A stretch of DNA of 24,000 nt from an uncultured Actinomycetes bacterium (GCA_963789165.1 CAWBJP010000001.1:272096-296095), one strand, 5' to 3'; shown: positions 3,206-21,501, counted from the first letter of the stretch. Numbers and translations: made by a program. Notes: generated by a model not told the origin, from the sequence alone.

Positions 3206-3288
3206 CTTCTATGGATGTGTGATGGATGGCAAGCCGAAGGGCCACCTCCGAACCCATCGGAAATGGCCCCCCACCTGCACTTTTCTCG

Positions 3289-3361
3289 TAGCCCGTACGG
3301 GATTCGAACCCGTGTCTCCACCTTGAGAGGGTGGTGTCCTAGGCCCCTAGACGAACGGGCC
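3289..3361 (-). tRNA. tRNA-Glu (anticodon CUC)
   Basis: The reverse complement folds by hand as GGCCCGT TC GTCT AGGGGCCTA GGAC A CCACC CTCTCAA GGTGG AGAC ACGGG TTCGAAT CCCGT ACGGGCT A. This gives a 7-bp acceptor stem (G1:U72 wobble), D and T arms, a TTCGAAT T-loop and anticodon loop CT-CTC-AA. CCA is not encoded. Confidence 0.9.
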
Positions 3362-3470: not shown

Positions 3471-3689
3471 TCAGCCGGCCAGAAGGAGGGGGGCGACGAA
3501 GGCGGTCCGGTTGAATCCGACCTCGGCCTCCCAGACCAGTTCGTCGATCTCCTCGTCGGCCAGCGTCTGGCTCAGCAGCCCGTGCACCCGGACCGCCGCC
3601 CGAGCCCAGTTCGTCGGGGCCAGGAGGGCGTCTTCCCACTCCAGGGTCGTCGACATGGTCGTCGGCGGGTTCTCCATCGTGAGGGTCAT
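3471..3689 (-). CDS. Hypothetical small protein (72 aa)
   Basis: ATG at 3689 is preceded by AGGAGG with a 5-nt spacer (cccAGGAGGccgacATG). Third codon positions are almost all G/C, consistent with the coding bias of the window. I recognise no family. Confidence 0.55.
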   Translation of the reverse strand: MTLTMENPPTTMSTTLEWEDALLAPTNWARAAVRVHGLLSQTLADEEIDELVWEAEVGFNRTAFVAPLLLAG

Positions 3690-3773
3690 GTCGGCCTCCT
3701 GGGCTGCGTACGGATGGGCGTGTCGATCATCCCGGTGCGGGCCGGGGTCGTCCTTCGCTCGGGCGACCGAGGC

Positions 3774-3793
3774 TGTGTGCCGGCGGCGACACA
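3774..3793. promoter_or_regulatory. 20-bp palindromic motif TGTGTG-CCGGCGGC-GACACA; candidate operator in a divergent promoter region
   Basis: It lies midway between divergent starts, 85 nt from 3689 (minus) and 87 nt from 3880 (plus). It shares 16 of 20 positions, including both A/T-containing arms, with the site at 11401-11420. I found no other TGTGT-N10-ACACA when scanning the window by eye. Confidence 0.4.
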
Positions 3794-3879
3794 GGAGGCG
3801 TCGCCCTCAACGACCTGGGGTCGGGTCAGGACGACGATGGACTCGACCGCAGCACACCACCGTCGCCGAGGAGGCCGGA

Positions 3880-4035
3880 ATGACCGTCACCCTGGAGTTT
3901 CCGCCCAGCACCACCGTCACCGACGACCGGCCGGAGTCCGAAGTCGCCGAAGAGCAGGCTGTCCCGTCGAAGCCGTTCGAGGAGTTCGCGGCTCTCCTGG
4001 CCCAGTCCTACATGTGGACGCCCCTCTTCGCCTGA
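3880..4035 (+). CDS. Small ORF (51 aa) with an acidic N-terminal half and an aromatic C-terminus ...AQSYMWTPLFA
   Basis: ATG at 3880 is preceded by GAGGAGG (gccGAGGAGGccggaATG). About 90% of third positions are G/C. The stop lies 35 nt upstream of the peroxidase ATG at 4071, so the two are likely co-transcribed. Confidence 0.55.
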   Translation: MTVTLEFPPSTTVTDDRPESEVAEEQAVPSKPFEEFAALLAQSYMWTPLFA

Positions 4036-4070: not shown

Positions 4071-5124
4071 ATGGGGCGACGGTCGAGAGCACCGGACGAA
4101 CACGGAAATGTCTTCTCCAGGTGGCTCATCGGTGTCCCCCTGGCGCTGGCCGCGCTGGCCGCCCTGGCGTTCGGCTGCACCCGACACGTCTCGGGCGCCG
4201 AGCCGCTCACCGCCGGGCGGATCCTCGGCCCCGTCCCGGTCCCGGCGGGGAACCCGCAGACCCCGGACAAGATCGCACTGGGCAAGCTCCTGTTCTTCGA
4301 CAAGCGGCTGTCCGCCGACAACGCCACGGCCTGCGCCAACTGTCACGACCCGGCCAAGGGCTGGAGCGACGGTCTGCCCCGCAGCGTCAGCCCCGCCGGC
4401 GAGATGGAACGCAACAGCATCAGCCTGTTCAACATCGCCTACGAGGACTTTCCGGCCTGGGACGGATTCGCCGCCAGCCTGGAAGAACACAATGGCGCCG
4501 CGCTCACCTTCGACTTCGGGGCCGGTGCGCAGGACGTTCCCGAACTGATCCGGAGCTGACGGACGACCCCGGATACCGGGAGCGCTTCGGGAAGGCCTTC
4601 GCTGGTGAGATCAGCTTCACCAGCGTCATCCGAGCCCTGGCCGCCTTCGAGCGCAGCGTGCTCACCTTCGGCTCCGACTTCGACCAATTCGCGATGGCGA
4701 CCGGTCCCGGCTGACGGCCGAGCAGCAGGACGGTCTGGCCCTGTTCATGGGGAGGGCGGCCTGTTCGTCATGCCACATCCCGCCGCTGTTCACCGACAAC
4801 CGCTTCCACGCCCTCGGCGTCCCCCAGGCCGGGCCCCTGGCCGAGGACCCGGGGCGGTTCGCCGTCACCGGCGACGAGGGGGACCGGGGCGCTTTCCGCA
4901 CCCCGACGCTGCGCAACCTGACCCTGACCGCGCCCTACATGCACGACGGCGTCTTCACCACCCTCGACGAGGTGGTCGCCTTCTACGACGCCGGTGGCGG
5001 TGCGGTGCCGGGCCGGAGTGGCCCCGAGATCGGGCCCCTCCACCTCAGCGCCGGAGAGCGCAAGGCACTGGTGGCGTACCTGGAGTCACTCACCGACACG
5101 AGATCTCAGACCGTCGGACCCTGA
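4071..5124 (+). pseudogene. Di-haem cytochrome c peroxidase / MauG-family protein, two frameshifts as assembled (about 4545-4556 and 4696-4698)
   Basis: There are two CxxCH haem motifs (CANCH and CSSCH) plus family-typical strings: LGKLLFFDKRLSADN, DPGYRERFGKAF, FRTPTLRNLTLTAPYMHDG, LDEVVAFYD. The three pieces lie in frames 3, 2 and 1. Restoring one G in ATGGCG (about 4696) gives ...FAMGDRSRLTAEQQDGLALFMG.... The N-terminus carries a hydrophobic signal/anchor (WLIGVPLALAALAALAFGC). Confidence 0.8.
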
Positions 5125-5148: not shown

Positions 5149-5843
5149 CTACCGGGCGAAGACGACCAGGAACTCGAGCTCGCCGTGGTCCTCGGTGGTC
5201 ACCGGGCCGAAGCTTGGGCTGGGGATGCCCCACTCAGCAAAGACGATGGGGATGGAACCCTGCACGTTGATGTTGGCGCCATCGCGACTGTGCCGTCAGG
5301 TCGACGGTGACGGTCTTCTTTGTGCCGTGCAGGGTCAGCTCGCCGGTGGCCGGCACGGTGATCTGCTTCCCGTCGGCCGGAAGCTCACCGAGGTCGATGG
5401 GCGTGGTCAGGGTGAACGTCGAGGTGGGGTAGGTGGCCACGTTCATGATCCGGCCCCGGAACTGGTTGTCACGGCGGTTCTCGTCGCTCTCCACCGTGGT
5501 CATGTCCACCGTCACGGTGGCCGTCGTGACCTTGGTCCCCTCGATGACCAGCTCGCCGGTCACGTCCTCGGTGCGGCCCGCCGCCTCGGCGTTCCGGCCG
5601 AGGAGCACCTCGTTCACCCGGTACCCGGCCTGGCTGCCGGTGGTCGCCGTCCAGGTGCCCTCCACGCCGGCCGCAGTCGAGGACCCCCCGTCGGTCGACG
5701 ATCGGGGCCGGGTCCCCGGAGCCTTTGAGGGTCAGAGGGGCGGGGGCGTCCTCCTTGATCAGGTCGACGTAGACCCAGGTCCCGCCGAAAGCGAGGACGG
5801 CAGCGAGGGGTACGGCGACGAGGAGCCACTTGAAACGGTGCAT
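5149..5843 (-). pseudogene. YceI-family periplasmic/secreted protein, two frameshifts as assembled (about 5279-5290 and the C6 run at 5684-5689)
   Basis: The N-terminal signal is MHRFKWLLVAVPLAAVLAFGG and the core reads GTWTATTGSQAGYRVNEVLLG...TVESDENRRDNQFRGRIMNVATYPTSTF. The C-terminus is recovered in a third frame: GANINVQGSIPIVFAEWGIPSPSFGPVTTEDHGELEFLVVFAR*. RBS GGAAAGG lies 7 nt upstream of the ATG. Confidence 0.8.
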
Positions 5844-6719: not shown

Positions 6720-6992
6720 TCAGGCGCCGAGCCGTTGCTCCTCGAGGTAGCGGAGGATCTCGGCGGCGTTGAAACGCCGGTGCCCGCCCAGGGTGCGGAT
6801 GGCGGAGATCTTCCCGGCCTTGGCCCACCGGGTGACCGTCTTGGGGTTGACCCGGAACAGTTCGGCCACTTCGGTAGGGGTGAGGAGGTCGTTGGGGTCG
6901 GTGCGGGGCTGCTGCACGGCGGTCCTTTCCTGGTCTGCCTCACTCGGGGGGACAGAGGGGACAGCCCGGGCGGTGACGGGCATTTCTCTCAT
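6720..6992 (-). CDS. bldC: BldC-like small MerR/excisionase-type DNA-binding regulator
   Basis: LLTPTEVAELFRVNPKTVTRWAKAGKISAIRTLGGHRRFNAAEI is nearly identical to the Streptomyces BldC core as I recall it (...FRVDPKTVTRWAKAGKL..IRTLGGHRRY...). The start is uncertain: TTG at 7001, or ATG at 6992 or 6983. Confidence 0.8.
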   Translation of the reverse strand: MREMPVTARAVPSVPPSEADQERTAVQQPRTDPNDLLTPTEVAELFRVNPKTVTRWAKAGKISAIRTLGGHRRFNAAEILRYLEEQRLGA

Positions 6993-7049
6993 AACGGACA
7001 ACGCACGAGTGACCCGGCTATGACGCCTGGCCGGCGGACAGTCGGGACC

Positions 7050-10149
<3,100 letters not shown>

Positions 10150-10163
<14 letters not shown>

Positions 10164-11124
10164 GCCACCGCACCCGCCGCTCCACCTCGCGCCGCACCGC
10201 CCGGTCGGCCACCGCGGCCGCCGCCCGCCGGCGCACCTCCCCGTCGTCCTCGGCCGGCACCTCCCGGGACAGCACCCGGGTCACCCGCCAGCCCTCGGCC
10301 ATCCGGGCCGGTCCGAGCGCGTCGCCGGCCCGCGCCCCGATGAGGGCCGGGCGCAACTCGGGTTCGAAGTCACACAGATGGGCCCGCCGCCGCCCCGGGG
10401 CAGCCCGGGCCGGGGTGTCCCCGGAGAAGAGTACGGCGGAGAAGTCCCCGTCCTCCCGCAGGCACAGCAACGCCTCGCGGGCGGTCGCCTCCTCGGGAAA
10501 CGACACCCACTCCAGGTCGAGGTCGATCCAGTCGAGGCGGCGGGCCACCACCTCCTCGGCGATGACCCGATCCGTGGCCGCCGCTCGCCGAAAGGCGACG
10601 TAGGCGGCTTCGAGCACCTCCCAACGGTCGCCGGCCCCCGGCGGGCGGGTGGGGACATGACCGGGCTCCGCACCGGCGGCTTCGGTCCGGGCGGCGGCGG
10701 CCGCGGCCCGATCAGCCACGGCCGCGGCGAAGGTCGAGTAGAGGCCGGAGCAGATGCCGGTGGCCCACAGCCGCGACGCCTCCTCCGCGTCCGCCGTCGG
10801 CCCCGCCCGCAGTTCGGGGTGGCGCTCCCGGGCCACGGTCCGACGGATGTGGTCCATCCAGGCGGAGACGGAGAGACGGCGCCCGGCCAGCCAGCGCTCT
10901 GTGTCCTCGGCTGAGATCAGGCGGTGCCGCCGGCGGAAGGCAGCCGCCGCCGCCCGCACCTCCTCGTCGCGCTGTCCCTCCGGCGCGGGGACGAGCGCCA
11001 GCGCCGCGACGCCCTCACGGACCTCACGAACATGGTCGCTCCACGCCTCCTGGCGGCGGCCCCAGTCGAGCACGTCCCCCCAGGTGTAGTCGGTGGAGGC
11101 GACGCGGAAGACGACGTCGTCCAA
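10150..11124 (-). CDS. Hypothetical 324-aa cytoplasmic protein with a degenerate parvulin (PpiC)-like C-terminal region; candidate peptide maturation/chaperone partner
   Basis: High-GC3 ORF with no signal peptide. The C-terminal stretch EEATAREALLCLREDGDFSAVLFSGDT...CDFEPELRPALIGARAGDALGPARMAEGWRVTRVLSRE follows the parvulin pattern (G-D-F..., then 'xG(D/E)xxGPxxxxxGWxxxxV') by eye. It is translationally coupled to the PCAT. The start is uncertain: TTG at 11124 lies 15 nt from AGGAG, and a GTG 17 codons downstream is an alternative. Confidence 0.65.
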
Positions 11125-11142: not shown

Positions 11143-11295
11143 CTAGCCCGATCCGCCCTTGCCGCCCTGGCCCGTGGGGTCGGCGTCGTCGGCGGCGGCG
11201 CCCCCCTTGATGTTCTCGGCGTCGGACGGCTCCGGCTCGAGGTCCTCGAGCTCGTCGACGTCGTCGGTCGGCCCGGCGGCGCGGATGTCGTTCAT
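11143..11295 (-). CDS. 50-aa precursor micro-peptide with an acidic double-glycine-type leader: MNDIRAAGPTDDVDELEDLEPEPSDAENIKGG | AAADDADPTGQGGKGGSG
   Basis: ATG at 11295 is preceded by GCGAGGGG with a 5-nt spacer. In the C-terminal 18 codons, 17 of 18 third positions are G/C, which fixes the frame across the G6 run. ...SDAENIKGG resembles the LSxxELxxIxGG leader end cleaved by C39 peptidases. It is the first gene of the operon that ends with a catalytically intact C39-ABC exporter. Confidence 0.65.
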   Translation of the reverse strand: MNDIRAAGPTDDVDELEDLEPEPSDAENIKGGAAADDADPTGQGGKGGSG

Positions 11296-11400
11296 GTCGG
11301 CCCCTCGCTCTCTCCTATGCACCCCGCCGGCAGCGCCGTTGGGGATGCCCGCATGGTATGGCCAGGATGCGACAGCGTCGATGCTCCCTTGAGCGCTGCA

Positions 11401-11424
11401 TGTGTCACGGTGCCGACACACCGT
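11401..11424. promoter_or_regulatory. Overlapping palindromes TGTGTC-ACGGTGCC-GACACA (11401-11420) and CACGGTG-N5-CACCGTG (11406-11424); candidate operator
   Basis: The site lies 106 nt upstream of the peptide ATG (minus strand) and 41 nt upstream of the ATG at 11461 that I reconstruct as the native cyclase start (plus strand). It shares the TGTGTS-N8-GACACA architecture with 3774-3793. Confidence 0.4.
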
Positions 11425-11483
11425 GGCCGGGCCGGCCGCACGGGCTACCGTCACCAGACGATGACCTTCAATCGAGCCGCAAG

Positions 11484-11503
11484 CCCACGGGTTCAGCCGT
11501 GGG
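11484..11503 (+). other. IS200/IS605 left-end subterminal hairpin
   Basis: The hairpin is CCCACGG-GTTCAG-CCGTGGG, extended by outer arms CGAGCC (11473-11478) / GGCTCG (11508-11513) around an internal loop. Confidence 0.65.
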
Positions 11504-11566
11504 TCAAGGCTCGGTCGGGGCTAGGCCCCGGAGGTAGTTGTCGTACCCGCGGTCCAGAATGGGCCT

Positions 11567-11956
11567 GTGGAGTATCGGTCGATGAACAAGACGGTGTACT
11601 CGACGAAGTACCACCTGATCTGGTGCCCGAAGTACCGCCGCCGCGTACTGGCCGGCAGGGTCGAGGAGCGCCTGAAGGAGATCCTCGCCGAGGTTGCCGG
11701 TGAGGTCGGGGCGGAGATCATCGAGGTGGAAGTGATGCCCGACCATGTGCACCTGCTCGTTGAGGTGCCCCCGGCGGTGGCGCGGTCCCGGTTCGTGCAG
11801 TTGGAGGGACGGTCGGCCCGGCTGCTGCGCCAGGAGTTCCCCCCGCTGCGCCGCCTGGGGTGTTTGTGGAGCCCGTCGTGGTTCGTCTCCACCGTCGGTG
11901 GAGCGCCGCTCGAGGTGGTCCGCCGCTACGTCGAGAACCAGAAGCGGGTGGCGTAG
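11567..11956 (+). CDS. tnpA: IS200/IS605-family Y1 (HUH) transposase TnpA
   Basis: YSTKYHLIWCPKYRRRVL, HUH motif MPDHVHLLV, and the catalytic Tyr context RRYVENQ. Length is about 125-129 aa. The real start may be the ATG at 11582 (MNKTVY...). Confidence 0.9.
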   Translation: MEYRSMNKTVYSTKYHLIWCPKYRRRVLAGRVEERLKEILAEVAGEVGAEIIEVEVMPDHVHLLVEVPPAVARSRFVQLEGRSARLLRQEFPPLRRLGCLWSPSWFVSTVGGAPLEVVRRYVENQKRVA

Positions 11957-11959
11957 CTC

Positions 11960-13144
11960 GTGGCCTTCCGTTACCGCCTTTACCCCACCCCGGCCCAGGC
12001 GGGGGGTTGCGAGCGGCACTGCGGCGACGCCCGCTACGTATGGAACCTGGCCCTGGAGCAGGCGAACTACTACCGGCCCGGGCATCCCACGCCCGGGAGC
12101 ACCGAACGGTTCCGCCAGCTCGCCGAGGCCCGGAAGGGCTCCTGGCTCGGCGAGGGGTCGTCGTCGGTGCAACAGCAGGCCCTGCGCGACTTCGACCAGG
12201 CGCTGCGGAACTGGTGGGCCGGCACGCATCGCCGGCCCAGGTGGCGCAAACAGGGAATCGACGAGGGATTCTGCCTCCGCGACGTCAAGGTGCAGAAGAT
12301 CTCAGGCAAGTGGGCCGAGGTCTACGTACCCAAGGTCGGCCCGGTGCGCTTTCGACTCACCCGCCCCCTCGGCGCGCACGGCATGGCTCGGGTCACCAGG
12401 GACCGGGCCCGGCGCTGGCACATCTCGTTCTCCGCCCCTCAGCCGCCCCTCGAACGCCCCGGCACTGGTTTGGCGGTCGGCGTCGATGTCGGCGTGGCCC
12501 ACACCGTCACCACCAGCGCCGGGAAGCATCTCGACATCCCCGGCCTCCGACCCGGCGAGCAGGCCCGCCTGCTCCGCCTGGAACGCAAGAAGGCCCGGCA
12601 GCGCAAGGGCAGCAACCGGCGTGCGAGAACCAAGCACGCCATCGCCGCCCTCCACGCCCGGGCCGCCGACCGCCGCAAGGACTGGGCCGAGAAGACCTCC
12701 ACCGGCCTCGTCGCCGACTTCGACCTGGTCGTCTTCGAGGCGCTCAGGGTCAAAGACATGCTCCGCTCCGCCCACGGCACCGCCGAGAACCCGGGCCGCA
12801 ACGTCGCCGCCAAAGCCGGGCTCAACCGGAAGATCGCCGCATCGGCCTGGGGGTTCCTCATCCGGCGCACCCAGGAGAAAGCCGCCACGACCGACGACTG
12901 CCAGGTGGTGCTCGTCGACCCTCGGCACACGTCGCAGCGCTGTTCGGCCTGCGACCACGTGGCCCCGGGCAACCGGCCGACCCAGGCAACCTTCCGGTGC
13001 GTGGCCTGCGGCCACGCCGAACACGCCGACATCAACGCGGCCAAGAACATCCTGGCGGCAGGGCTTGCCGCCACTGCGCGTGGAGGGAGGCCCGAAATCG
13101 GGGCGCCCAGCGAAGCGCGAACCACCGGACGGGAGGCGGCATGA
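11960..13144 (+). CDS. tnpB: TnpB (OrfB_IS605 RuvC-like, RNA-guided nuclease family) with a zinc ribbon
   Basis: GTG start. The N-terminus FRYRLYPTPAQ is typical of TnpB. RuvC triad candidates are present: GVDVGV (D), VVFEAL (E), HADINAAKNI (D). The zinc ribbon reads CSACDH...FRCVACGH. There are no frame disruptions. Confidence 0.9.
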   Translation: MAFRYRLYPTPAQAGGCERHCGDARYVWNLALEQANYYRPGHPTPGSTERFRQLAEARKGSWLGEGSSSVQQQALRDFDQALRNWWAGTHRRPRWRKQGIDEGFCLRDVKVQKISGKWAEVYVPKVGPVRFRLTRPLGAHGMARVTRDRARRWHISFSAPQPPLERPGTGLAVGVDVGVAHTVTTSAGKHLDIPGLRPGEQARLLRLERKKARQRKGSNRRARTKHAIAALHARAADRRKDWAEKTSTGLVADFDLVVFEALRVKDMLRSAHGTAENPGRNVAAKAGLNRKIAASAWGFLIRRTQEKAATTDDCQVVLVDPRHTSQRCSACDHVAPGNRPTQATFRCVACGHAEHADINAAKNILAAGLAATARGGRPEIGAPSEARTTGREAA

Positions 13145-16100
13145 ACACGCCCCCCAAAGGAATCCCACGGCTCCAGCCGAGGGAGGAGGTCAAGGAGTCC
13201 GGACTCCATGCCCGGGAAGGGGAGCTCCCCACGGGAGCGGTCACGTTCCTCTTCACCGACATCGAAGGTTCGACCCGCATGGCCGAGCATCTCGGGTCCA
13301 GCTTCGGCGAGCTGCTGGACGCCCACCACCGGTTGCTGGGCGAGGCGGTCGTCTCCCACCGGGGCGTGGTCGTCAACACGCAGGGTGACGCCTTCTTCGC
13401 CGTGTTCCTCGCCGCCGCCGACGCCCTCGCCGCGGCCGTGGCCGCCCAGCGGGCCCTGGCCGCCGAAGCGTGGACGGGCGGCGTGGAGCTGCGGGTGCGC
13501 ATGGGCATGCACAGCGGCGAGGCGGTCCTCGGCGGCGCCGACTACGTGGGCCTGGCCGTCCACCGGGCCGCCCGGGTGGCCGGCCTGGCCTACGGCGGTC
13601 AGGTCCTGGTGTCGGAGGCGACCCGGCGCCGGGCCGATCCGGAGCTGCCCGTCGACGTCAGCTTCACCGATCTCGGTCTGCACCGGCTCAAGGACCTGAC
13701 CGAGCCCGAACGGATCCATCAGCTCGTCCATCCCGACCTGTCCCGCGACTTCCCCGCGCTCCGATCCCTCGACGCCTTCCGCCACAACCTTCCCGTCGCC
13801 GCCACCAGCTTCGTGGGCCGGGAGTCGGAGGTGGCCGCCCTGGCCAAGCACCTGGCCGACGCCCGCTTGGTCACGCTGCTCGGACCGGGCGGTTCGGGCA
13901 AGACCCGCCTCGCTCTCCAAGTGGCGGCGGAACGGGTGGACCAGCACACCGACGGGGTGTGGCTGGCGGAGCTGGCGCCCTGGGGCGATCCGGCGCTCGT
14001 GCCCGCCGCCGTGGCCGCCGTGCTCGCGGCCCGGGAGGAGCCGGGCAAGAGCCTGGTGGAAACTCTGGAGAGCTGGGTGGCGGACCGGGACGTGCTCCTC
14101 GTGCTGGACAACTGCGAGCACGTGGTGGCCGCCGCCGCCGACCTGGCCGGCCGCCTCCTGCGGGCCGGACCGGGAGTGCGGGTACTGGCCACCAGCCGGG
14201 AGGCGCTCGGCCTGGCCGCCGAGCAGGTGGTGACTGTGCCCCCGCTGCGCCTGCCCGATCCGGCGGCGGGGACGTCACCTTCGCTCGAGGCCCTCCTCGA
14301 CTCCGAGGCCGTCCGGCTCTTCGTGGAACGGGCCCGTTCGGCCCGGCCGGACCTGGAGCTGGGCCCCGAACACGCCGCCGCCGTCATCCGCATCTGCACC
14401 CGGCTCGACGGGATCCCCCTGGCCCTGGAGCTGGCCGCCCGCCGGGTCCGGGCGCTGTCCCTCTCCGAACTGGCCGACCGTCTCGACCAGCGTCTCCGCT
14501 TCCTGACCGGCGGGGGCCGGGAGACCGAGGCCCGCCACCAGACCCTGCGCGCCGCCATCGACTGGAGCCACGACCTGCTGGAGGGCGACGAACGCACCCT
14601 CTTCCGGCGCCTGGGGGTGTTCGCCGGCGGCTTCGACCTGGCCGCGGCCGAGACGGTGTGCGCCGGGCCCTACGACACCCTCGACCTGATCGCGGCGCTG
14701 GTCGACAAGTCGCTCGTGGTGGCGTCGGAGGCGGGCGGAGCGACCCGTTACCGGATGCTGGAGACCATCCGGGAGTACGCCCTGGAACGCCTGTCCGAGG
14801 CCCGGGAGGACGACGCCACCCGCCACGCCCACCTGGCCTGGGCGCTGCACGTGGTGGAGCGCGGCGCACCACCCCGCTCCCGGGGCCTGCCCCGGGAATG
14901 GGTGGATCACCTCGATGTGGCGCACGACAACCTGCGGGTGGCCCTCGACCATGCCCAGGAGCACGACCCGGAGGCGGGCCTGCGGCTGGCCGCCGCCCTA
15001 CGGCCCTTCTGGTGGGTGCGGGGCCACTGGCACGAAGGTCGGGTCCGGCTGGAGGCGGCCCTGGCCCGGACCCCGGGCGCGGCCCCCGCCCTCCGGGCCA
15101 AAGGCCTGGTGGGGGCGGCCGACCTGGCCGAGTGGCAGGGAGACCTGGGCCCGGCCACGGCCCTGGCCGAGGAGGCCCGCCAGATCTTCCGCCGGGCGGG
15201 CGACCGGCCCGGCGAAGCGGAGTGCTGCTGGAAGCTGGGCAACGTGGCCTTGATGCGGGGGCGGACGGCCGACGCCCGGGGCCTGCTGGAGGAGGGCGTG
15301 GCCATCTCCCGGGACCTCCCGGCTCGGGAGCATCTGGCGGAGTTGCTCAACGCTCTCGGTTGCCTGTTCCTGGACGAGGGCGACTTCGGCGCCGCCCGCC
15401 ACTGCTGGGAGGAGACCCTGGCCACCGACCCGGCCCTCTCCGACGCCTTCGTCGGCGGCCCCGGCTCCCACGCCCGGTTCAATTTGGCCATGGTCCTCTG
15501 CTTCGAGGGGGCCTACCCCGCGGCCCGGGAACTGGCCCAGGAGAGCCTGGAGCGGGGCCGGGTGCTGGGCGACGCCAGCCTGGCCGCCGGAGCCCGGGGC
15601 CTGCTGGGGGAGATCGCTCTCTACGAAGGCGACTTCGCCGCCAGCCGGTCGCTCCTGGAGGAGAGCCTGGCGCTCCAGCGGCAGCTGGGCGAGGCGACGA
15701 TGGTGGCGGGCACCACGCTGCGCCTCGGCCGCCTGGCGCTGGCCCGCGGCGACCTGGCGGGGGCGCGGACGCTCCTGGAGGACGGGCTGCGCCAGCAGCG
15801 GGAGCTGGACGGCAAGTGGGGTACCGCCTCCGCTCTGCGGGGCCTGGGCGTCGTCGCCCGCCAGGAGCAGCGCTACGGGGAGGCCCGGTCGGCCCTGGAA
15901 GAGAGCCTGGCCCTCTTCCGCGAGATGGGCAGCCGCGACGACGTGATGACCAACCTGGGTGAGCTCGGGGAGCTGGCCCTGGCCGAAGGCGACCTGACCT
16001 CGGCCCGGGCCCTGCTGGAGGACAGCCTGGATCAGAGCCGGGCCCTGGGCGTGCAGCGGGAGACGGCGTGCCGGCTGGAGGCCCTGGGTCGCCTGGCCCT

Positions 16101-16431
16101 GGCCGAGGGTGACCTCGACGGCGCGGCGCGACGGGCTGGCCGACGCCCTGGCCCGGGCCGTCGAGCTCGGAGCCCGGCCCGTCGCCGCGGACGCGGCCGA
16201 AGCCCTGGCCGCGGCGGTCGCCGCCGGCGACGACCTCCAGCGGGCCGCCCGCCTGCTCGGGTCCGCCTCCGGCCTGCGCGAATCCATGGGCGCCGCCACT
16301 CCTGCCGTCGGTACGCGTCGGGCACGACACCACCTGGGCCGCGGTGCAGAAGGGCGCTCGGCCCCGAGGAAGCGGGGCGGGCCGTGGCCGACGGGAGAGG
16401 CTTGGCCCTGGAGGAGCTCGCCGCGCCATGA
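13141..16431 (+). CDS. Class III adenylate/guanylate cyclase domain + STAND P-loop NTPase (NB-ARC-like) + TPR repeats; C-terminal 300 nt needs three +1 frame corrections
   Basis: The cyclase domain has LPTGAVTFLFTDIEGST...NTQGDAFFAVF...GLAVHRAARV...LGLHRLKDL. The P-loop is LLGPGGSGKTRLA and Walker B is VLLVLDNCEH. It also has RLDGIPLALELAA and a long TPR-like array (G(D/E)xxxAxxLLEESLAL...). The ATG at 13141 overlaps the tnpB stop (ATGA). The ORF-track version starting at 11860 is an out-of-frame run-through of tnpB. The tail is read best as frame 1 to about 16125, frame 2 to about 16292, frame 3 to about 16352, then frame 1 to the stop at 16431. Confidence 0.85.
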   Translation: MNTPPKGIPRLQPREEVKESGLHAREGELPTGAVTFLFTDIEGSTRMAEHLGSSFGELLDAHHRLLGEAVVSHRGVVVNTQGDAFFAVFLAAADALAAAVAAQRALAAEAWTGGVELRVRMGMHSGEAVLGGADYVGLAVHRAARVAGLAYGGQVLVSEATRRRADPELPVDVSFTDLGLHRLKDLTEPERIHQLVHPDLSRDFPALRSLDAFRHNLPVAATSFVGRESEVAALAKHLADARLVTLLGPGGSGKTRLALQVAAERVDQHTDGVWLAELAPWGDPALVPAAVAAVLAAREEPGKSLVETLESWVADRDVLLVLDNCEHVVAAAADLAGRLLRAGPGVRVLATSREALGLAAEQVVTVPPLRLPDPAAGTSPSLEALLDSEAVRLFVERARSARPDLELGPEHAAAVIRICTRLDGIPLALELAARRVRALSLSELADRLDQRLRFLTGGGRETEARHQTLRAAIDWSHDLLEGDERTLFRRLGVFAGGFDLAAAETVCAGPYDTLDLIAALVDKSLVVASEAGGATRYRMLETIREYALERLSEAREDDATRHAHLAWALHVVERGAPPRSRGLPREWVDHLDVAHDNLRVALDHAQEHDPEAGLRLAAALRPFWWVRGHWHEGRVRLEAALARTPGAAPALRAKGLVGAADLAEWQGDLGPATALAEEARQIFRRAGDRPGEAECCWKLGNVALMRGRTADARGLLEEGVAISRDLPAREHLAELLNALGCLFLDEGDFGAARHCWEETLATDPALSDAFVGGPGSHARFNLAMVLCFEGAYPAARELAQESLERGRVLGDASLAAGARGLLGEIALYEGDFAASRSLLEESLALQRQLGEATMVAGTTLRLGRLALARGDLAGARTLLEDGLRQQRELDGKWGTASALRGLGVVARQEQRYGEARSALEESLALFREMGSRDDVMTNLGELGELALAEGDLTSARALLEDSLDQSRALGVQRETACRLEALGRLALAEGDLDGAARRAGRRPGPGRRARSPARRRGRGRSPGRGGRRRRRPPAGRPPARVRLRPARIHGRRHSCRRYASGTTPPGPRCRRALGPEEAGRAVADGRGLALEELAAP
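13164..13183 (+). other. IS200/IS605 right-end subterminal hairpin
   Basis: The hairpin CCCACGG-CTCCAG-CCGAGGG has one mismatch and is closely related to the LE hairpin sequence. It lies within the first 15 codons of the cyclase ORF as now assembled. Confidence 0.6.
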
Positions 16432-16461: not shown

Positions 16462-16477
16462 CACCATCCTGATGGAG

Positions 16478-16549
16478 CTCGGGGGCAGGGATTCGAACCC
16501 CGAATGGCAGGGCCAGAACCTGCTGTGATGCCGATTTCACCACCCCCGA
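16478..16549 (-). tRNA. tRNA-Gln (anticodon CUG)
   Basis: The reverse complement folds as TCGGGGG TG GTGA AATCGGCA TCAC A GCAGG TTCTGGC CCTGC CATT CGGGG TTCGAAT CCCTG CCCCCGA G (72 nt). It has the U1:A72 pair typical of bacterial tRNA-Gln and anticodon loop TT-CTG-GC. Confidence 0.9.
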
Positions 16550-19449: not shown

Positions 19450-19496
19450 ACCGCCAGTTACTGCTCGCCGGGGGCTATTTCCTGTCCTGTCGCTCA

Positions 19497-19518
19497 AACG
19501 TCATACCGGCTTGACGTT
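19497..19518 (-). terminator. Small hairpin 3 nt downstream of the gltX stop; weak candidate terminator
   Basis: AACGTCA-N8-TGACGTT (7-bp stem) is followed on the transcript by UUUGAG. It sits in an unusually AT-richer 70-nt spacer. Confidence 0.35.
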
Positions 19519-19521
19519 CGC

Positions 19522-20956
19522 TTAAGCCACCAGCGTCCTTGCGGCCCGTACCCGGTCCAAGGCCCGGTCCCGGCCCAGGAGCACGATGGAGTCGAACAGG
19601 GGCAACCCGGCGTGGCTGCCCTCCACCGCGGCGTAGACGGCGGGCAGCACCTGGCGGGGCTTGACCTCGAGACGGGCGAGGACGGGGCGCAGGTCGACGC
19701 CCTCGGGGGTCCACTCGCACGTCTCCAGATGCTCGGCCACGGCGTCGAGCACTTCGGCCACCCGCTCCGTCCTGACCAACCTTTCGAGCGACTCGGGGGC
19801 GATGGCGAACTCGTCGTCGGCCACGAACAGGAAGGCCGTCATGTCGGCCAGCTCGGCCAGGGTCGAGGCCCGTTCCCGGGCCAGGGGGACGGCCCGGGCG
19901 AAGGTCTCCTCGTCGAGGCGTTCTCCGAAGCGCCGGCGGGCGAAGGGCAACGCCCGCTCGACCAGCGCGGGGACGGGGAGTGCCCGGATGTACTCCCCGT
20001 TCATCCAATTGAGCTTGTCGTAGTCGAAGAAGGCGGCGGAGCGGGTGACCCGGTCGAGGTCGAAGGCGGCCACCATCTCGTCGGTGGAGAACAGCTCGCT
20101 CCCCTCCTCCACGCCGGCAGAATCCGAGGAGGAAGAGATAGTTGCGCAACGCCTCGGGGAGGTAACCCCGCTCGGCGAAATCCTCCAGGGCGACGGCGCC
20201 GTGACGCTTGGACAGCTTGCCCCGGTCGGCGCCGACCAGCAGCGGGAGGTGGGCGAACACCGGCCGGCCGGGCACCCCGAGCGCCTCCCGCAGGGCCAGC
20301 ACCCGGTGCGTGGAGTCGATGAGATCCTCGCCCCGGATCACGTGGGTGATGCCCATGTCGGCGTCGTCCACCGCATTGGCCAGGAAGAAGACCGGCGCGC
20401 CGGAGGAGCGCACGATGACGAAGTCGCTGATCCGCGACCACTCGACCGTCACCTCACCCCGGACGGCATCCTCGAAACGGCTCACCCCGACGTCGGGGGT
20501 CCGGAACCGGATCGAGCGGGGTCGCCCCTCGGCCGCCCGAGCCGCCCGCTCCTCCGCCGTCAGGTCCCGGCAGTGCCCGTCGTAACCCGGGTCGCCGCCG
20601 GCCGCCCGGGCCGCCTCCGATCGGGCCGCCAGCTCCTCTTCGGTGCAGGAGCACTCGTAGGCGGCTCCCTGCGCCAGCAACTGCCCCGCCGCTTCCCGGT
20701 AACGGTCGAGACGTTCGCTCTGGCGATGGGGCCCTTCGTCCCAGTCGAGGCCCAGCCAGCGCAAGGTGGACTGGATGCCCTCCACCCACTCTTCCCGGGA
20801 ACGGTCCAGGTCGGTGTCCTCGATGCGCAGCACCAGGGTGCCGTGGTGGTGGCGGGCGTAGAGCCAGTTGAACAGGGCGGTCCGGGTACCTCCGACGTGG
20901 AGGAAGCCCGTCGGGGCCGGAGCGAACCGGACCCGCACCCCCGGGCTCGGAGTCAT
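19522..20956 (-). pseudogene. gltX: Glutamyl-tRNA synthetase, single frameshift as assembled near 20118-20124
   Basis: The N-terminal part has VRVRFAPAPTGFLHVGGTRTALFNWLYAR...LRIEDTDLDRS...and KLSKRHG (HIGH-like and KMSKS-like motifs), ending ...EALRNYLFLLGF. The C-terminal part continues one frame over as ...AGVEEGSELFSTDEMVAAFDLDRVTRSAAFFDYDKLNWMNGEYIR... to the stop at 19522. The ATG at 20956 overlaps the upstream stop. Confidence 0.9.
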
Positions 20957-21501
20957 TCGTGCGGCGAGGAGAGGGCCGAGACCCCGACCCCGAGCAGCTG
21001 GCGCCAGTTGCCCAGGGCGGCGCGCACGTCTTCGCCGGGCTTGAGCCGCAGCGTCGCGTCGGGCACGCCGTCGACCAGCCCCCGCCGGCGGGAGTAGTCG
21101 TGATCGGCGCCGGCCACCGTGAGCCGGCGCCACTCCGCCAGCTCGGGGGTTCCTCCCCCTAGCCAGCCGAAGAGGCTGAAGGCCAGCGCCAGGTCTTCGG
21201 TCACCGGCGCCCGGCCGAAGAGGGAGGCCCGGCGCATGGCCAGCTCGGCGGCAACCGTCATGGCGTCGTGCTCCGTCTCCGGGGGAACGATCTCCAGCCG
21301 GCCGTGGAAGCGCCCGGCCAGGGTCAGGGCGTAGCCGGAGTCAGGCCCGGGATTGCCGAACAGCCGCCCCGGAGGGCACAGCGGCTCTCCGGGGGGAAGG
21401 TCACCGGGTCGCAGGGCCCGCCATCCCTTGGGGGGAGGGATCCGCACCGACTCGCGGGGAGCGTCCTCGGCCTGGGTGGGAACGAAGGGGTCGACGGCCA
21501 C
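20953..21501 (-). CDS. Hypothetical protein (182 aa)
   Basis: High-GC3 ORF packed between the cimA stop (3-nt gap) and the gltX start (4-nt overlap). I recognise no family. Confidence 0.6.
   Translation of the reverse strand: MAVDPFVPTQAEDAPRESVRIPPPKGWRALRPGDLPPGEPLCPPGRLFGNPGPDSGYALTLAGRFHGRLEIVPPETEHDAMTVAAELAMRRASLFGRAPVTEDLALAFSLFGWLGGGTPELAEWRRLTVAGADHDYSRRRGLVDGVPDATLRLKPGEDVRAALGNWRQLLGVGVSALSSPHE

What the first reader, a model, noticed from the sequence alone, without database searches (positions are those of the whole stretch)
11401..11424. The same rare 20-bp palindrome (TGTGTS-N8-GACACA) marks both small-peptide promoter regions
Site B is aTGTGTCACGGTGCCGACACAc at 11401-11420. 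Site A is cTGTGTGCCGGCGGCGACACAg at 3774-3793. They match at 16 of 20 positions, including both A/T-containing arms, which are rare compositions in this GC-rich DNA. By eye I found no third TGTGT-N10-ACACA in the 24 kb.

Both sites lie in divergent intergenic regions. Site A is between the 72-aa ORF and the 51-aa ORF/peroxidase operon. Site B is between the GG-peptide operon and the reconstructed cyclase start.

For the peptide operon, a plausible promoter has a -35 TCGACG (11376-11381), a 17-nt spacer and a -10 TACCAT (11353-11358). That would centre site B near -64, an activator-like position. Inference: one dimeric regulator co-controls the two loci. The arms recall CRP/FNR-type sites (TGTGA-N6-TCACA), but spacing and inner bases differ.
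Basis: partly seen in the sequence, partly recalled or inferred. Interest (0 to 1): 0.6.

Follow-up and report, generated by a model that had tools for sequence, protein, structure and literature searches.

The report
Shared CRP-family (Cmr-type) operator pair
The two matching 20-bp palindromes are real, conserved binding sites of the kind used by a cyclic-nucleotide-responsive (CRP/Cmr-type) transcription factor, and they probably put a secreted-peptide export operon and a pair of small-protein genes under one cyclic-nucleotide-controlled switch.

Summary
TGTGT-N10-ACACA occurs exactly twice in the 4.31 Mb genome (0.06 expected), both times in this window, in divergent promoter regions.

Both sites are conserved where the orthologous region exists. 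Site B is present in 10 of 10 peptide/cyclase intergenic regions. Site A is present in 6 of 7 orf51/orf72 regions. The arms are invariant and the spacers vary.

The conserved core is the inner 16-mer TGTS-N8-SACA. That is ordinary CRP-family geometry. It matches the published consensus of Mycobacterium tuberculosis Cmr (TGTCA-N6-[C/T]GACA, discriminator bases 4C/13G).

The palindrome always sits 20 nt from a -35-like SGACS and 42 nt from a -10-like hexamer, so its centre is near -64.5. A search for this composite architecture gave 26 hits in 11 of 12 genomes of the family. It gave 2 hits in 29 genomes outside the family and none for the reversed control.

The same architecture lies upstream of a CRP-family regulator gene in the sister genus. 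In that protein, Ala replaces the Glu that reads 4G/13C.

The best reading is that a Cmr-like regulator co-controls the GG-peptide/cNMP-gated exporter operon, orf72/orf51 and one further promoter. Protein binding, the sign of regulation and the ligand were not tested. This is a new member of a known kind, of moderate interest.

The parts
3774..3793 (.). Site A: 20-bp palindrome. The core 16-mer is 3776-3791, which reads TGTC-N8-CACA on the minus strand. Its centre lies within 1 bp of the midpoint of the orf72/orf51 intergenic region.
   Evidence: conserved in 6 of 7 orthologous regions
11401..11420 (.). Site B: 20-bp palindrome. The core 16-mer is 11403-11418 (TGTCA-N6-CGACA).
   Evidence: conserved in 10 of 10 orthologous regions
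11376..11381 (-). -35-like TCGACG of the GG-peptide promoter. It lies inside the invariant 10-mer GCATCGACGC, 20 nt from site B.
11353..11358 (-). -10-like TACCAT of the GG-peptide promoter, 42 nt from site B in all 10 orthologs (TAC[CG]AT).
11143..11295 (-). 50-aa double-glycine leader peptide gene, the first gene of the operon controlled from site B.
10150..11124 (-). 324-aa helper protein, with a weak match to the TIGR04500 peptide-maturation family.
7050..10163 (-). Exporter with two cNMP-binding domains, a C39 peptidase domain and an ABC transporter.
6720..7001 (-). BldC-family small HTH protein at the end of the operon. Orthologs are called as 65 aa.
3726..3731 (-). -10-like GATGAT of the orf72 promoter, 42 nt from site A in 6 of 6 orthologs.
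3749..3753 (-). -35-like GGACG of the orf72 promoter, 20 nt from site A.
3471..3689 (-). orf72, a conserved 72-aa protein of unknown function.
3833..3838 (+). -10-like GACGAT of the orf51 promoter. It is 39 nt from site A here and 42 nt in the four other orthologs.
3880..4035 (+). orf51, a 51-aa protein. Its N-terminus (MT.T.E.PP.TT) and ribosome-binding site are paralogous to those of orf72.
4100..5124 (+). Di-haem cytochrome c peroxidase (CCP/MauG family) downstream of orf51. It is split over three reading frames in this assembly.
11446..11463 (+). Conserved TACCGT (-10-like) and the ATG of the divergent cyclase gene. Its distance to site B varies from 6 to 27 nt among orthologs.
11470..13195 (+). 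IS200/IS605 element (tnpA, tnpB) inserted about four codons into the cyclase gene. It is absent from all orthologous loci, and site B lies outside it.
13198..16431 (+). Remainder of the class III cyclase / STAND ATPase / TPR gene.

Best explanation
Both palindromes are operators for one homodimeric CRP/FNR-family transcription factor of the Cmr type.

**What is recognised.** The functional element is the inner 16-mer TGTS-N8-SACA, with G2, T3, A14 and C15 invariant and C/G at positions 4 and 13. The outer TG...CA is incidental.

**Candidate regulator.** The most likely regulator is the 231-aa cNMP-binding-plus-HTH protein encoded about 41 kb upstream on the same contig (G000:C1:231100-231795). 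Its recognition helix reads SRATVNR. Ala stands where CRP has the Glu that reads G4/C13.

**Position.** The operator sits at a fixed place: 20 nt upstream of a -35-like SGACS and 42 nt upstream of a -10-like hexamer. That puts its centre near -64.5, as in a class I CRP-dependent promoter.

**Targets.**
- Site B serves the GG-peptide / helper / cNMP-gated exporter operon, and it shares the region with the divergent cyclase gene.
- Site A sits at the dyad of an inverted duplication and serves orf72 and orf51(-peroxidase) in both directions.
- A third promoter of the same build (G000:C2:92376-92395) drives a secreted protein of about 207 aa.

**Status of each step.** Shown: existence, rarity, conservation, fixed phasing, family-restricted distribution, and linkage to the regulator gene in the sister genus. 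Inferred: that this protein binds the sites, that it activates, and that a cyclic nucleotide is the signal.
For: - **Rarity.** There are 2 copies in 4.31 Mb against 0.06 expected.
- **Conservation of site B.** T[G/C]TGTC-N8-GACACA is present in 10 of 10 orthologous regions. In an alignment of 8 of them, one per near-identical group, the right arm is identical in 8/8 and the left arm in 8/8 except position 2 (3/8). The spacer averages 3.75/8 and the whole intergenic region 5.4/8.
- **Conservation of site A.** The arms are invariant in 6 of 7 orthologs, with five different spacers.
- **Phasing.** There are exactly 42 nt to the -10-like hexamer in 10/10 (peptide side), 6/6 (orf72 side) and 4/5 (orf51 side). 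Indels occur only on the other side.
- **Specificity of the architecture.** The composite pattern has exactly 3 hits in G000. It has 26 hits in 11 of 12 family genomes, 0 reversed-control hits, and 2 hits in 29 genomes of other families.
- **Link to the regulator gene.** In genus g3 the same architecture lies about 130-150 nt upstream of the CRP-family gene in 5 of 5 orthologs. G005, where that gene was not found, has no composite hit.
- **Recognition helix.** SRATVNR aligns to SRETVNK of solved actinobacterial CRP-family (CRP/FNR) regulators (chains 4cyd, 4byy). It is invariant in 10 orthologs that are 67-100% identical overall.
- **Literature.** The Cmr SELEX consensus is TGTCA-N6-[C/T]GACA, and Cmr autoregulates from a site about 150 nt upstream of its start (PMC4705688). 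Positions 4/13 discriminate between the two mycobacterial regulators: Cmr prefers 4C/13G, and Glu189 of CRP_Mt is replaced in Cmr (PMC5758884).
Against: - No binding, expression or transcription-start data exist.
- The -35/-10 assignments are inferred from conservation and fail a strict sigma-70 consensus scan. The -64.5 position and the activator role are therefore provisional. Cmr itself is described as an autorepressor.
- In the window's own genus the regulator gene lacks the upstream site. It follows a LuxR-type gene instead.
- The candidate protein is closer in sequence to solved actinobacterial CRP-family regulators, M. tuberculosis CRP among them, than to Cmr. It has Ala where Cmr has Pro.
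- Site A has the less preferred C at position 13, and it was lost in one ortholog (L039).
- The bare core TGTS-N8-SACA is only weakly enriched in intergenic DNA of G000 (20 of 40 sites).
- The relaxed 18-mer is only about twofold denser inside the family than outside it.
Confidence: 0.7

Rival explanations
1. The palindromes are operators for a dimeric regulator of another family. Candidates are a PadR-type winged-helix protein (canonical ATGT-N8-10-ACAT), a LuxR/GerE-type protein (20-bp boxes with CTG-N10-CAG geometry), or the BldC-family protein encoded at the end of the peptide operon.
For: - The TGT-N10-ACA geometry also fits the PadR motif (PMC3506622). By my recollection, not checked in the library, it also fits the lux box.
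- The genome has six PadR genes and many cyclase-STAND proteins with LuxR HTH domains.
- The BldC-family gene is syntenic with the operon in 9 of the 10 loci that reach that far. It is the only DNA-binding domain found in the cluster.
Against: - No PadR or LuxR gene is linked to any site.
- BldC binds AT-rich direct repeats (AATTxxxxC) head-to-tail, not GC-rich inverted repeats (PMC5859096). The cluster protein keeps the BldC recognition helix and wing.
- BldC paralogs number 2-8 per genome and show no consistent linkage to the sites.
- L075 keeps site B without an adjacent BldC gene.
- None of these families explains the conserved site upstream of the CRP-family gene, or the exact match to the Cmr consensus.
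Confidence: 0.17
2. Site A is only a by-product of the inverted duplication that created orf51 and orf72, and its likeness to site B is coincidental. In that case only site B is an operator.
For: - orf51 and orf72 share their N-termini, ribosome-binding sites and promoter-like blocks in mirror image.
- Site A lies within 1-3 bp of the intergenic midpoint.
- It is lost in L039.
Against: - The arms of site A are invariant across orthologs with five different spacers, while the flanks diverge.
- It keeps the same 20/42-nt spacing to -35/-10-like elements as site B.
- A second exact copy falling by chance within the 13-kb cluster is expected about 2e-4 times (derived).
Confidence: 0.06
3. The palindromes act as nucleic-acid structures (RNA hairpin, attenuator, cruciform) or as recombination or transposon-end sites rather than protein operators.
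For: They are inverted repeats able to form 6-bp stems. An IS200/IS605 element, which uses hairpins at its ends, lies about 50 bp from site B.
Against: - Folding energies are no better than those of shuffled sequence (z = 0.03, 0.20, -0.82, -1.81).
- There is no Rfam match.
- The conserved T-C-TGTC variant breaks a stem pair on one side without compensation in six orthologs.
- Site B lies outside the IS, whose ends are set by a second copy, and it is present in every relative that lacks the IS.
- The region between the two sites is not a mobile unit.
Confidence: 0.03
4. The two matches are chance occurrences with no function.
For: The pattern was picked post hoc by eye, and alternating TG/CA runs arise easily.
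Against: Only 0.06 copies are expected genome-wide. Both sites are conserved across many orthologs. The reversed control gave no hit in 41 genomes for the composite pattern.
Confidence: 0.01

Closest known systems
Cmr (Rv1675c) binding sites of Mycobacterium tuberculosis complex (CRP/FNR family)
   Same: - It is a 16-bp palindrome with 5-N6-5 geometry. The published SELEX consensus TGTCA-N6-[C/T]GACA fits the site B core in the window (TGTCA-N6-CGACA), and its orthologs fit or differ only at position 5.
- Bases 2G, 3T, 14A and 15C are critical, with 4C/13G as discriminators.
- The regulator lacks the Glu that reads 4G/13C.
- An autoregulatory-type site lies about 150 nt upstream of the regulator's own start.
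- The setting is rich in cyclic-nucleotide signalling.

Sources: PMC4705688, PMC5758884.
   Different: - The candidate regulator here carries Ala, not Pro, at the discriminator residue. Its best matches among solved structures are other actinobacterial CRP-family regulators, M. tuberculosis CRP among them; Cmr is not named among the 60 shown. Orthology to Cmr is therefore not shown.
- The regulon looks tiny (about 2-4 promoters per genome) against hundreds of Cmr ChIP sites.
- The sites sit in a rigid promoter architecture (20 nt to the -35, 42 nt to the -10).
- The organism is an uncultured Acidimicrobiia bacterium.
Class I CRP-dependent promoters (E. coli CRP site TGTGA-N6-TCACA centred at -61.5)
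   Same: A dyad-symmetric 16-mer with the same half-site spacing. It lies one site upstream of the -35, on a fixed helical phase. A cyclic nucleotide is the presumed signal.
   Different: - Position 4/13 is C/G rather than G/C in site B.
- The centre is about 3 bp further upstream (-64.5, from the predicted -10).
- The transcription start is not mapped, and activation has not been shown.
PadR-family operators (ATGT-N8-10-ACAT)
   Same: A TGT...ACA inverted repeat with a spacer of about 10 nt (PMC3506622).
   Different: No PadR gene is linked to any site, and the match to the Cmr consensus is closer and longer.
BldC operators of Streptomyces
   Same: A BldC-family protein is encoded in the regulated operon.
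   Different: BldC binds AT-rich 9-bp direct repeats head-to-tail (PMC5859096). The sites here are GC-rich inverted repeats.

Membership tests
Cmr-type CRP/FNR-family operator | 16-bp dyad with 5-N6-5 half-site geometry | tested here: met
   The conserved columns are T3 G4 T5 S6 ... S15 A16 C17 A18 of the 20-mer, which is TGTS-N8-SACA.
Cmr-type CRP/FNR-family operator | Critical bases 2G, 3T, 14A and 15C of the 16-mer (PMC5758884) | tested here: met
   These bases are invariant in 10 site B orthologs, 6 site A orthologs, 5 sites upstream of the regulator gene, and the third G000 site.
Cmr-type CRP/FNR-family operator | Discriminator bases 4C and 13G, as opposed to 4G/13C for canonical CRP | tested here: met
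   Site B and all its orthologs have 4C/13G. Site A has 4C/13C, one preferred and one less preferred base, which Cmr is reported to tolerate (PMC5758884).
Cmr-type CRP/FNR-family operator | A CRP-family regulator in the genome lacking the Glu (Glu181 in E. coli, Glu189 in M. tuberculosis) that reads 4G/13C | tested here: met
   The protein from G000:C1:231100-231795 has a cNMP-binding domain and an HTH_Crp_2 domain. Its helix SRATVNR aligns to SRETVNK and is invariant in 10 orthologs.
Cmr-type CRP/FNR-family operator | Demonstrated binding of the regulator to the site | not testable with these tools
   This needs EMSA, DAP-seq or ChIP. The only indirect support is that motif and gene occur together.
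Cmr orthologous group (Rv1675c) | The regulator is an ortholog of Cmr (Pro at the discriminator residue, Arg-rich loop) | tested here: inconclusive
   The family's protein has Ala. More distant relatives in G037 and G022 have Pro (SRPTANR). The best matches among solved structures are CRP-family chains of other names, M. tuberculosis CRP among them; Cmr is not named among the 60 shown. The Arg-loop was not examined.
Canonical CRP site (TGTGA-N6-TCACA) | G at position 4 and C at position 13 | tested here: not met
   Site B has C/G at these positions in all 10 orthologs.
Class I activator-dependent promoter | Operator centred near -61.5 or integral helical turns upstream, on a fixed phase with the -35/-10 | tested here: inconclusive
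   The fixed 20-nt and 42-nt spacings hold in four promoter sets. The centre computes to about -64.5 from a predicted -10, and no transcription start is mapped.
BldC operator | AT-rich direct repeats AATTxxxxC bound head-to-tail | tested here: not met
   The sites are GC-rich inverted repeats with no AATT element.
PadR operator | ATGT-N8-10-ACAT with an adjacent or linked PadR gene | tested here: inconclusive
   The geometry is compatible. None of the six PadR genes in G000 lies near a site.

The most novel reading that the evidence does not exclude
The locus is a self-contained second-messenger circuit with two tiers of cyclic-nucleotide control.

- A cyclase-STAND-TPR sensor is transcribed divergently from the same operator.
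- Its cyclic nucleotide acts on a Cmr-like regulator, which switches on the GG-leader peptide, its exporter and the paralogous small proteins orf51 and orf72.
- The same nucleotide acts on the two cNMP-binding domains of the exporter, which gate release.

This would be a previously undescribed, nucleotide-gated peptide-signalling module in soil Acidimicrobiia.
Probability: 0.25. Interest if true: 0.7.

Novelty: new member of a known kind. Interest (0 to 1): 0.5.

Why it matters
- **A link between two modules.** The finding ties together two gene modules that otherwise look unrelated: the GG-peptide with its cNMP-gated exporter and cyclase, and orf51/orf72 with the di-haem peroxidase. It also gives this widespread but unstudied peptide-export system a concrete, testable regulator and operator.
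- **Wider reach of a specificity rule.** The Cmr-type rule (C/G at positions 4/13, loss of the CRP glutamate) would extend from mycobacteria to uncultured Acidimicrobiia. Here it comes with an Ala variant and an unusually rigid promoter architecture.
- **A tractable system.** With about three promoters per genome, this is a simple system for asking how genomes with more than 50 cyclases keep cyclic-nucleotide signals specific.

Tried and rejected
1. **Site B as part of the IS200/IS605 left end.** Rejected. The IS boundaries set by a second copy begin at about 11470, and the site is present in all relatives that lack the IS.
2. **The motif as a general signal upstream of cyclase genes.** G000 has about 55 cyclase-domain genes. 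Apart from the cyclase beside site B, none has a relaxed motif within 500 bp upstream. Three sites next to cyclase genes in G011 remain only suggestive.
3. **The motif tied to the peroxidase.** Eight orthologous peroxidase loci have no site within the fetched contigs at up to 2 mismatches.
4. **The BldC-family protein as regulator.** Its published specificity does not fit, and the paralogs show no consistent linkage to sites.
5. **orf72 as a small DNA-binding autoregulator.** It has no Pfam or NCBIfam hit. The AlphaFold model is poor (pLDDT 55, a two-helix hairpin), so I made no fold search.
6. **PadR and LuxR geometry.** These are compatible in shape, but no gene of either family is linked to a site.
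7. **RNA or DNA structure.** There is no energetic signal and no Rfam hit.
8. **Enrichment of the bare core or relaxed 18-mer.** This test is weak or noisy. Only the composite promoter pattern is sharply specific.
9. **Literature search on the outer TGTGT/ACACA arms.** It found nothing relevant.

Full report
**1. The observation**

Site A (TGTGTGCCGGCGGCGACACA) lies at 3774-3793 and site B (TGTGTCACGGTGCCGACACA) at 11401-11420. They agree at 16 of 20 positions. Allowing one mismatch, the window holds no third TGTGT-N10-ACACA, and shuffles give 0.12 expected matches.

I laid down the whole assembly: 4.31 Mb, 71% G+C, 14 contigs, with the window at C1:272096-296095. The exact pattern occurs twice in it, and both copies are these sites. 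All other spacers from 0 to 20 together give two hits. Half-site counts predict 0.06 copies at this spacing.

**2. Context**

The window comes from an Acidimicrobiia MAG. Record titles of close relatives say so. Between tRNA-Glu (3288-3361) and tRNA-Gln (16477-16549) the genes run in this order:

- orf72 (3471-3689, minus strand)
- site A
- orf51 (3880-4035, plus strand)
- a di-haem CCP/MauG peroxidase, split over three reading frames
- YceI (also frameshifted)
- a 277-aa protein
- a BldC-family small HTH protein (6720-7001, minus strand)
- a cNMP-binding x2 / C39 peptidase / ABC exporter (7050-10163, minus strand)
- a 324-aa helper protein
- the 50-aa GG-leader peptide (11143-11295, minus strand)
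- site B
- the start of a class III cyclase / STAND / TPR gene

These assignments rest.

An IS200/IS605 element (tnpA and tnpB, about 11470-13195) interrupts the cyclase gene. Its boundaries come from a second copy on contig C3. The insertion lies about four codons into the cyclase gene and is absent from all relatives. Site B lies about 50 bp outside the IS.

**3. Conservation of site B**

I collected orthologous loci from same-genus genomes, from metagenome and genome contig collections, and through close homologs of the 324-aa protein. Ten loci contain the peptide/cyclase intergenic region. All ten carry T[G/C]TGTC-N8-GACACA at the same place.

I aligned eight of them, one per near-identical group:

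| Region | Mean identity to the window (of 8) |
|---|---|
| Right arm | 8.0 |
| Left arm | 7.2 (8/8 except position 2, which is 3/8) |
| 8-nt spacer | 3.75 |
| Whole intergenic region | 5.4 |

The conserved T-C-TGTC variant breaks a potential stem pair on one side without compensation. Together with unremarkable folding energies and no Rfam match, this argues for a protein site and against a nucleic-acid structure.

**4. Conservation of site A**

orf72 is a real conserved small protein, with seven clusters at 67-100% identity. Seven orthologous orf51/orf72 intergenic regions were recovered. Six carry TGTGTC-N8-CACACA with five different spacers. One of them (L039) has lost the orf72-proximal arm through a small deletion.

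orf51 and orf72 share their N-terminus (MT.T.E.PP.TT), their ribosome-binding site and their promoter-like blocks in mirror image. They therefore arose by an inverted duplication. Site A lies within 1-3 bp of the midpoint between them.

**5. A fixed promoter architecture**

Reading from each palindrome toward the small gene, the same layout recurs:

| Promoter | -10-like hexamer | Loci with exactly 42 nt from the 20-mer |
|---|---|---|
| GG-peptide | TAC[CG]AT | 10 of 10 |
| orf72 | [GC]ATGAT | 6 of 6 |
| orf51 | GACGAT | 4 of 5 (the window has 39 nt after a 3-nt deletion) |

A -35-like SGACS sits at offsets 21-25 in all of them. On the opposite (cyclase) side of site B, the distance to the conserved TACCGT varies from 6 to 27 nt.

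The operator is therefore phased with the small-gene promoters. Its centre lies near -64.5 if transcription starts 7 nt after the -10. These hexamers fail a strict sigma-70 consensus scan, so the assignment rests on conservation alone.

**6. Specificity of the architecture**

I searched for the composite pattern: core 16-mer, then N22, SGACS, N17, then NANNNT.

- In G000 it has exactly three hits: site B, site A, and C2:92376-92395. The third drives a secreted protein of about 207 aa.
- Across 41 related genomes it gives 26 hits in 11 of 12 genomes of this family.
- It gives 2 hits in 29 genomes of other families in the order.
- The reversed control gives no hit anywhere.

The bare core and the relaxed 18-mer are much noisier.

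**7. Which regulator**

The conserved core TGTS-N8-SACA has ordinary CRP-family geometry. G000 encodes two CRP-family proteins. One of them, at C1:231100-231795, has a canonical phosphate-binding cassette (Glu and Arg retained). Its recognition helix SRATVNR aligns to SRETVNK of solved actinobacterial CRP-family (CRP/FNR) regulators (chains 4cyd, 4byy), so Ala replaces the Glu. The helix is invariant in ten family orthologs that are 67-100% identical overall.

In the sister genus, all five orthologs of this gene carry the same operator about 130-150 nt upstream of the start codon. Four of the five have the exact 20/42-nt architecture, and the fifth is off by 1 nt. G005, in which the gene was not found, has no composite hit. 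In G010, a 67%-complete assembly, the gene was also not found, yet there is one composite hit. One of the two hits outside the family lies 23 bp beyond a related gene in G037.

The published work fits closely. M. tuberculosis Cmr binds TGTCA-N6-[C/T]GACA and autoregulates from a site about 150 nt upstream of its start (PMC4705688). Positions 2, 3, 14 and 15 are critical. Positions 4 and 13 discriminate: Cmr prefers 4C/13G, while Glu189 of CRP_Mt reads 4G/13C and is replaced in Cmr (PMC5758884). The site B core in the window (TGTCA-N6-CGACA) matches this consensus, and its orthologs match it or differ only at position 5.

**8. Mechanism proposed**

A Cmr-like, presumably cyclic-nucleotide-responsive dimer binds both operators, and a third elsewhere in the genome, from a class I-like position. 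It co-regulates three things:

- the GG-peptide / helper / exporter operon;
- the orf72 and orf51 (with peroxidase) pair, in both directions;
- a secreted protein encoded on another contig.

The divergent cyclase shares site B, but without fixed phasing. The exporter itself carries two cNMP-binding domains, so the same messenger could act on both transcription and export. The sign of regulation, the ligand and the binding itself are inferred.

**9. Rivals**

- **PadR-, LuxR- or BldC-family regulators.** These cannot be excluded, but they lack any linkage to the sites. BldC's published specificity (AT-rich direct repeats, PMC5859096) does not fit.
- **Site A as a by-product of the inverted duplication.** This does not explain its invariant arms with variable spacers.
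- **Structure-based explanations and chance.** The data argue against both.

**10. Verdict**

The finding is real. This is a new member of a known kind. Its interest is moderate, because it gives an unstudied cNMP-gated peptide-export system a concrete regulator and operator to test.

Earlier notes of this scan had already described the operon, the peptide, the IS insertion and the cyclase-exporter pairing on this same window. None of the notes shown to me dealt with the operator or its regulator.

Noticed in passing
3690-3879 and the first ~15 codons of orf72 (3645-3689) and orf51 (3880-3925): orf51 and orf72 are mirror-image paralogs. They share the N-terminus MT.T.E.PP.TT, the same ribosome-binding site and the same promoter-like blocks. 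This is an inverted duplication centred on site A. In one relative (L039) the peroxidase between orf51 and YceI is absent.
   Followed up: partly
11374-11383: The 10-mer GCGTCGATGC, which contains the -35-like element, is almost invariant in the peptide/cyclase regions aligned: nine of the ten columns are identical in all eight aligned loci. That is longer than a -35 needs. It may hold a second protein contact or a specialised sigma element.
   Followed up: no
G000:C1:218033-218056 (about 54 kb upstream of the window): An extended palindrome GGAGTGTC-N8-GACACTCC, with the same core TGTCG-N6-TGACA, lies in a divergent region 25 bp upstream of a stand-alone 142-aa cNMP-binding protein gene. It lacks the composite promoter spacing.
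   Followed up: partly
G000:C10:435530-435590: The second CRP/FNR-family gene of the genome (helix RRASVSV) is preceded by repeated GCGTAC units that include TGTACG-N4-CGTACA. This is possibly its own operator, of a different specificity.
   Followed up: no
whole genome G000: About 55 class III cyclase-domain genes occur in 4.3 Mb. Many are fused to STAND ATPase/TPR modules, and some to LuxR HTH domains. BldC-family genes number 2-8 per genome in this family.
   Followed up: partly
4100-5124, 5234-5843, 19475-21133: The peroxidase, YceI and gltX genes are each split across reading frames. This points either to indel errors in the assembly or to real pseudogenes. An essential gene (gltX) is affected, which favours assembly error.
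   Followed up: no
G000:C3:756677-758395 and C3:713952-714255: There is a second copy of the IS200/IS605 element, 81% identical. There is also a remnant of about 300 bp that keeps only the two ends, a PATE-like miniature element.
   Followed up: partly
L011 (G011:C53) 2145-2372 and L107 (G001:C178): A conserved 74-75-aa protein (..LALRDGSRIDDC.LVS.GR..) lies next to an operator of this type in two genera. In G011 it is divergent from a cyclase-AAA gene.
   Followed up: partly
L016 (G009:C10) about 7057-7120: A palindrome of this type is followed by a run of further GTGTC/GACAC units, between a serine recombinase gene and a primase-polymerase gene. It looks like a mobile-element site rather than a member of the regulon.
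   Followed up: no
11407-11426: In the window and its two closest relatives, a second inverted repeat CACGGTG / CACCGTG overlaps the right half of site B. It is not conserved in more distant orthologs.
   Followed up: no
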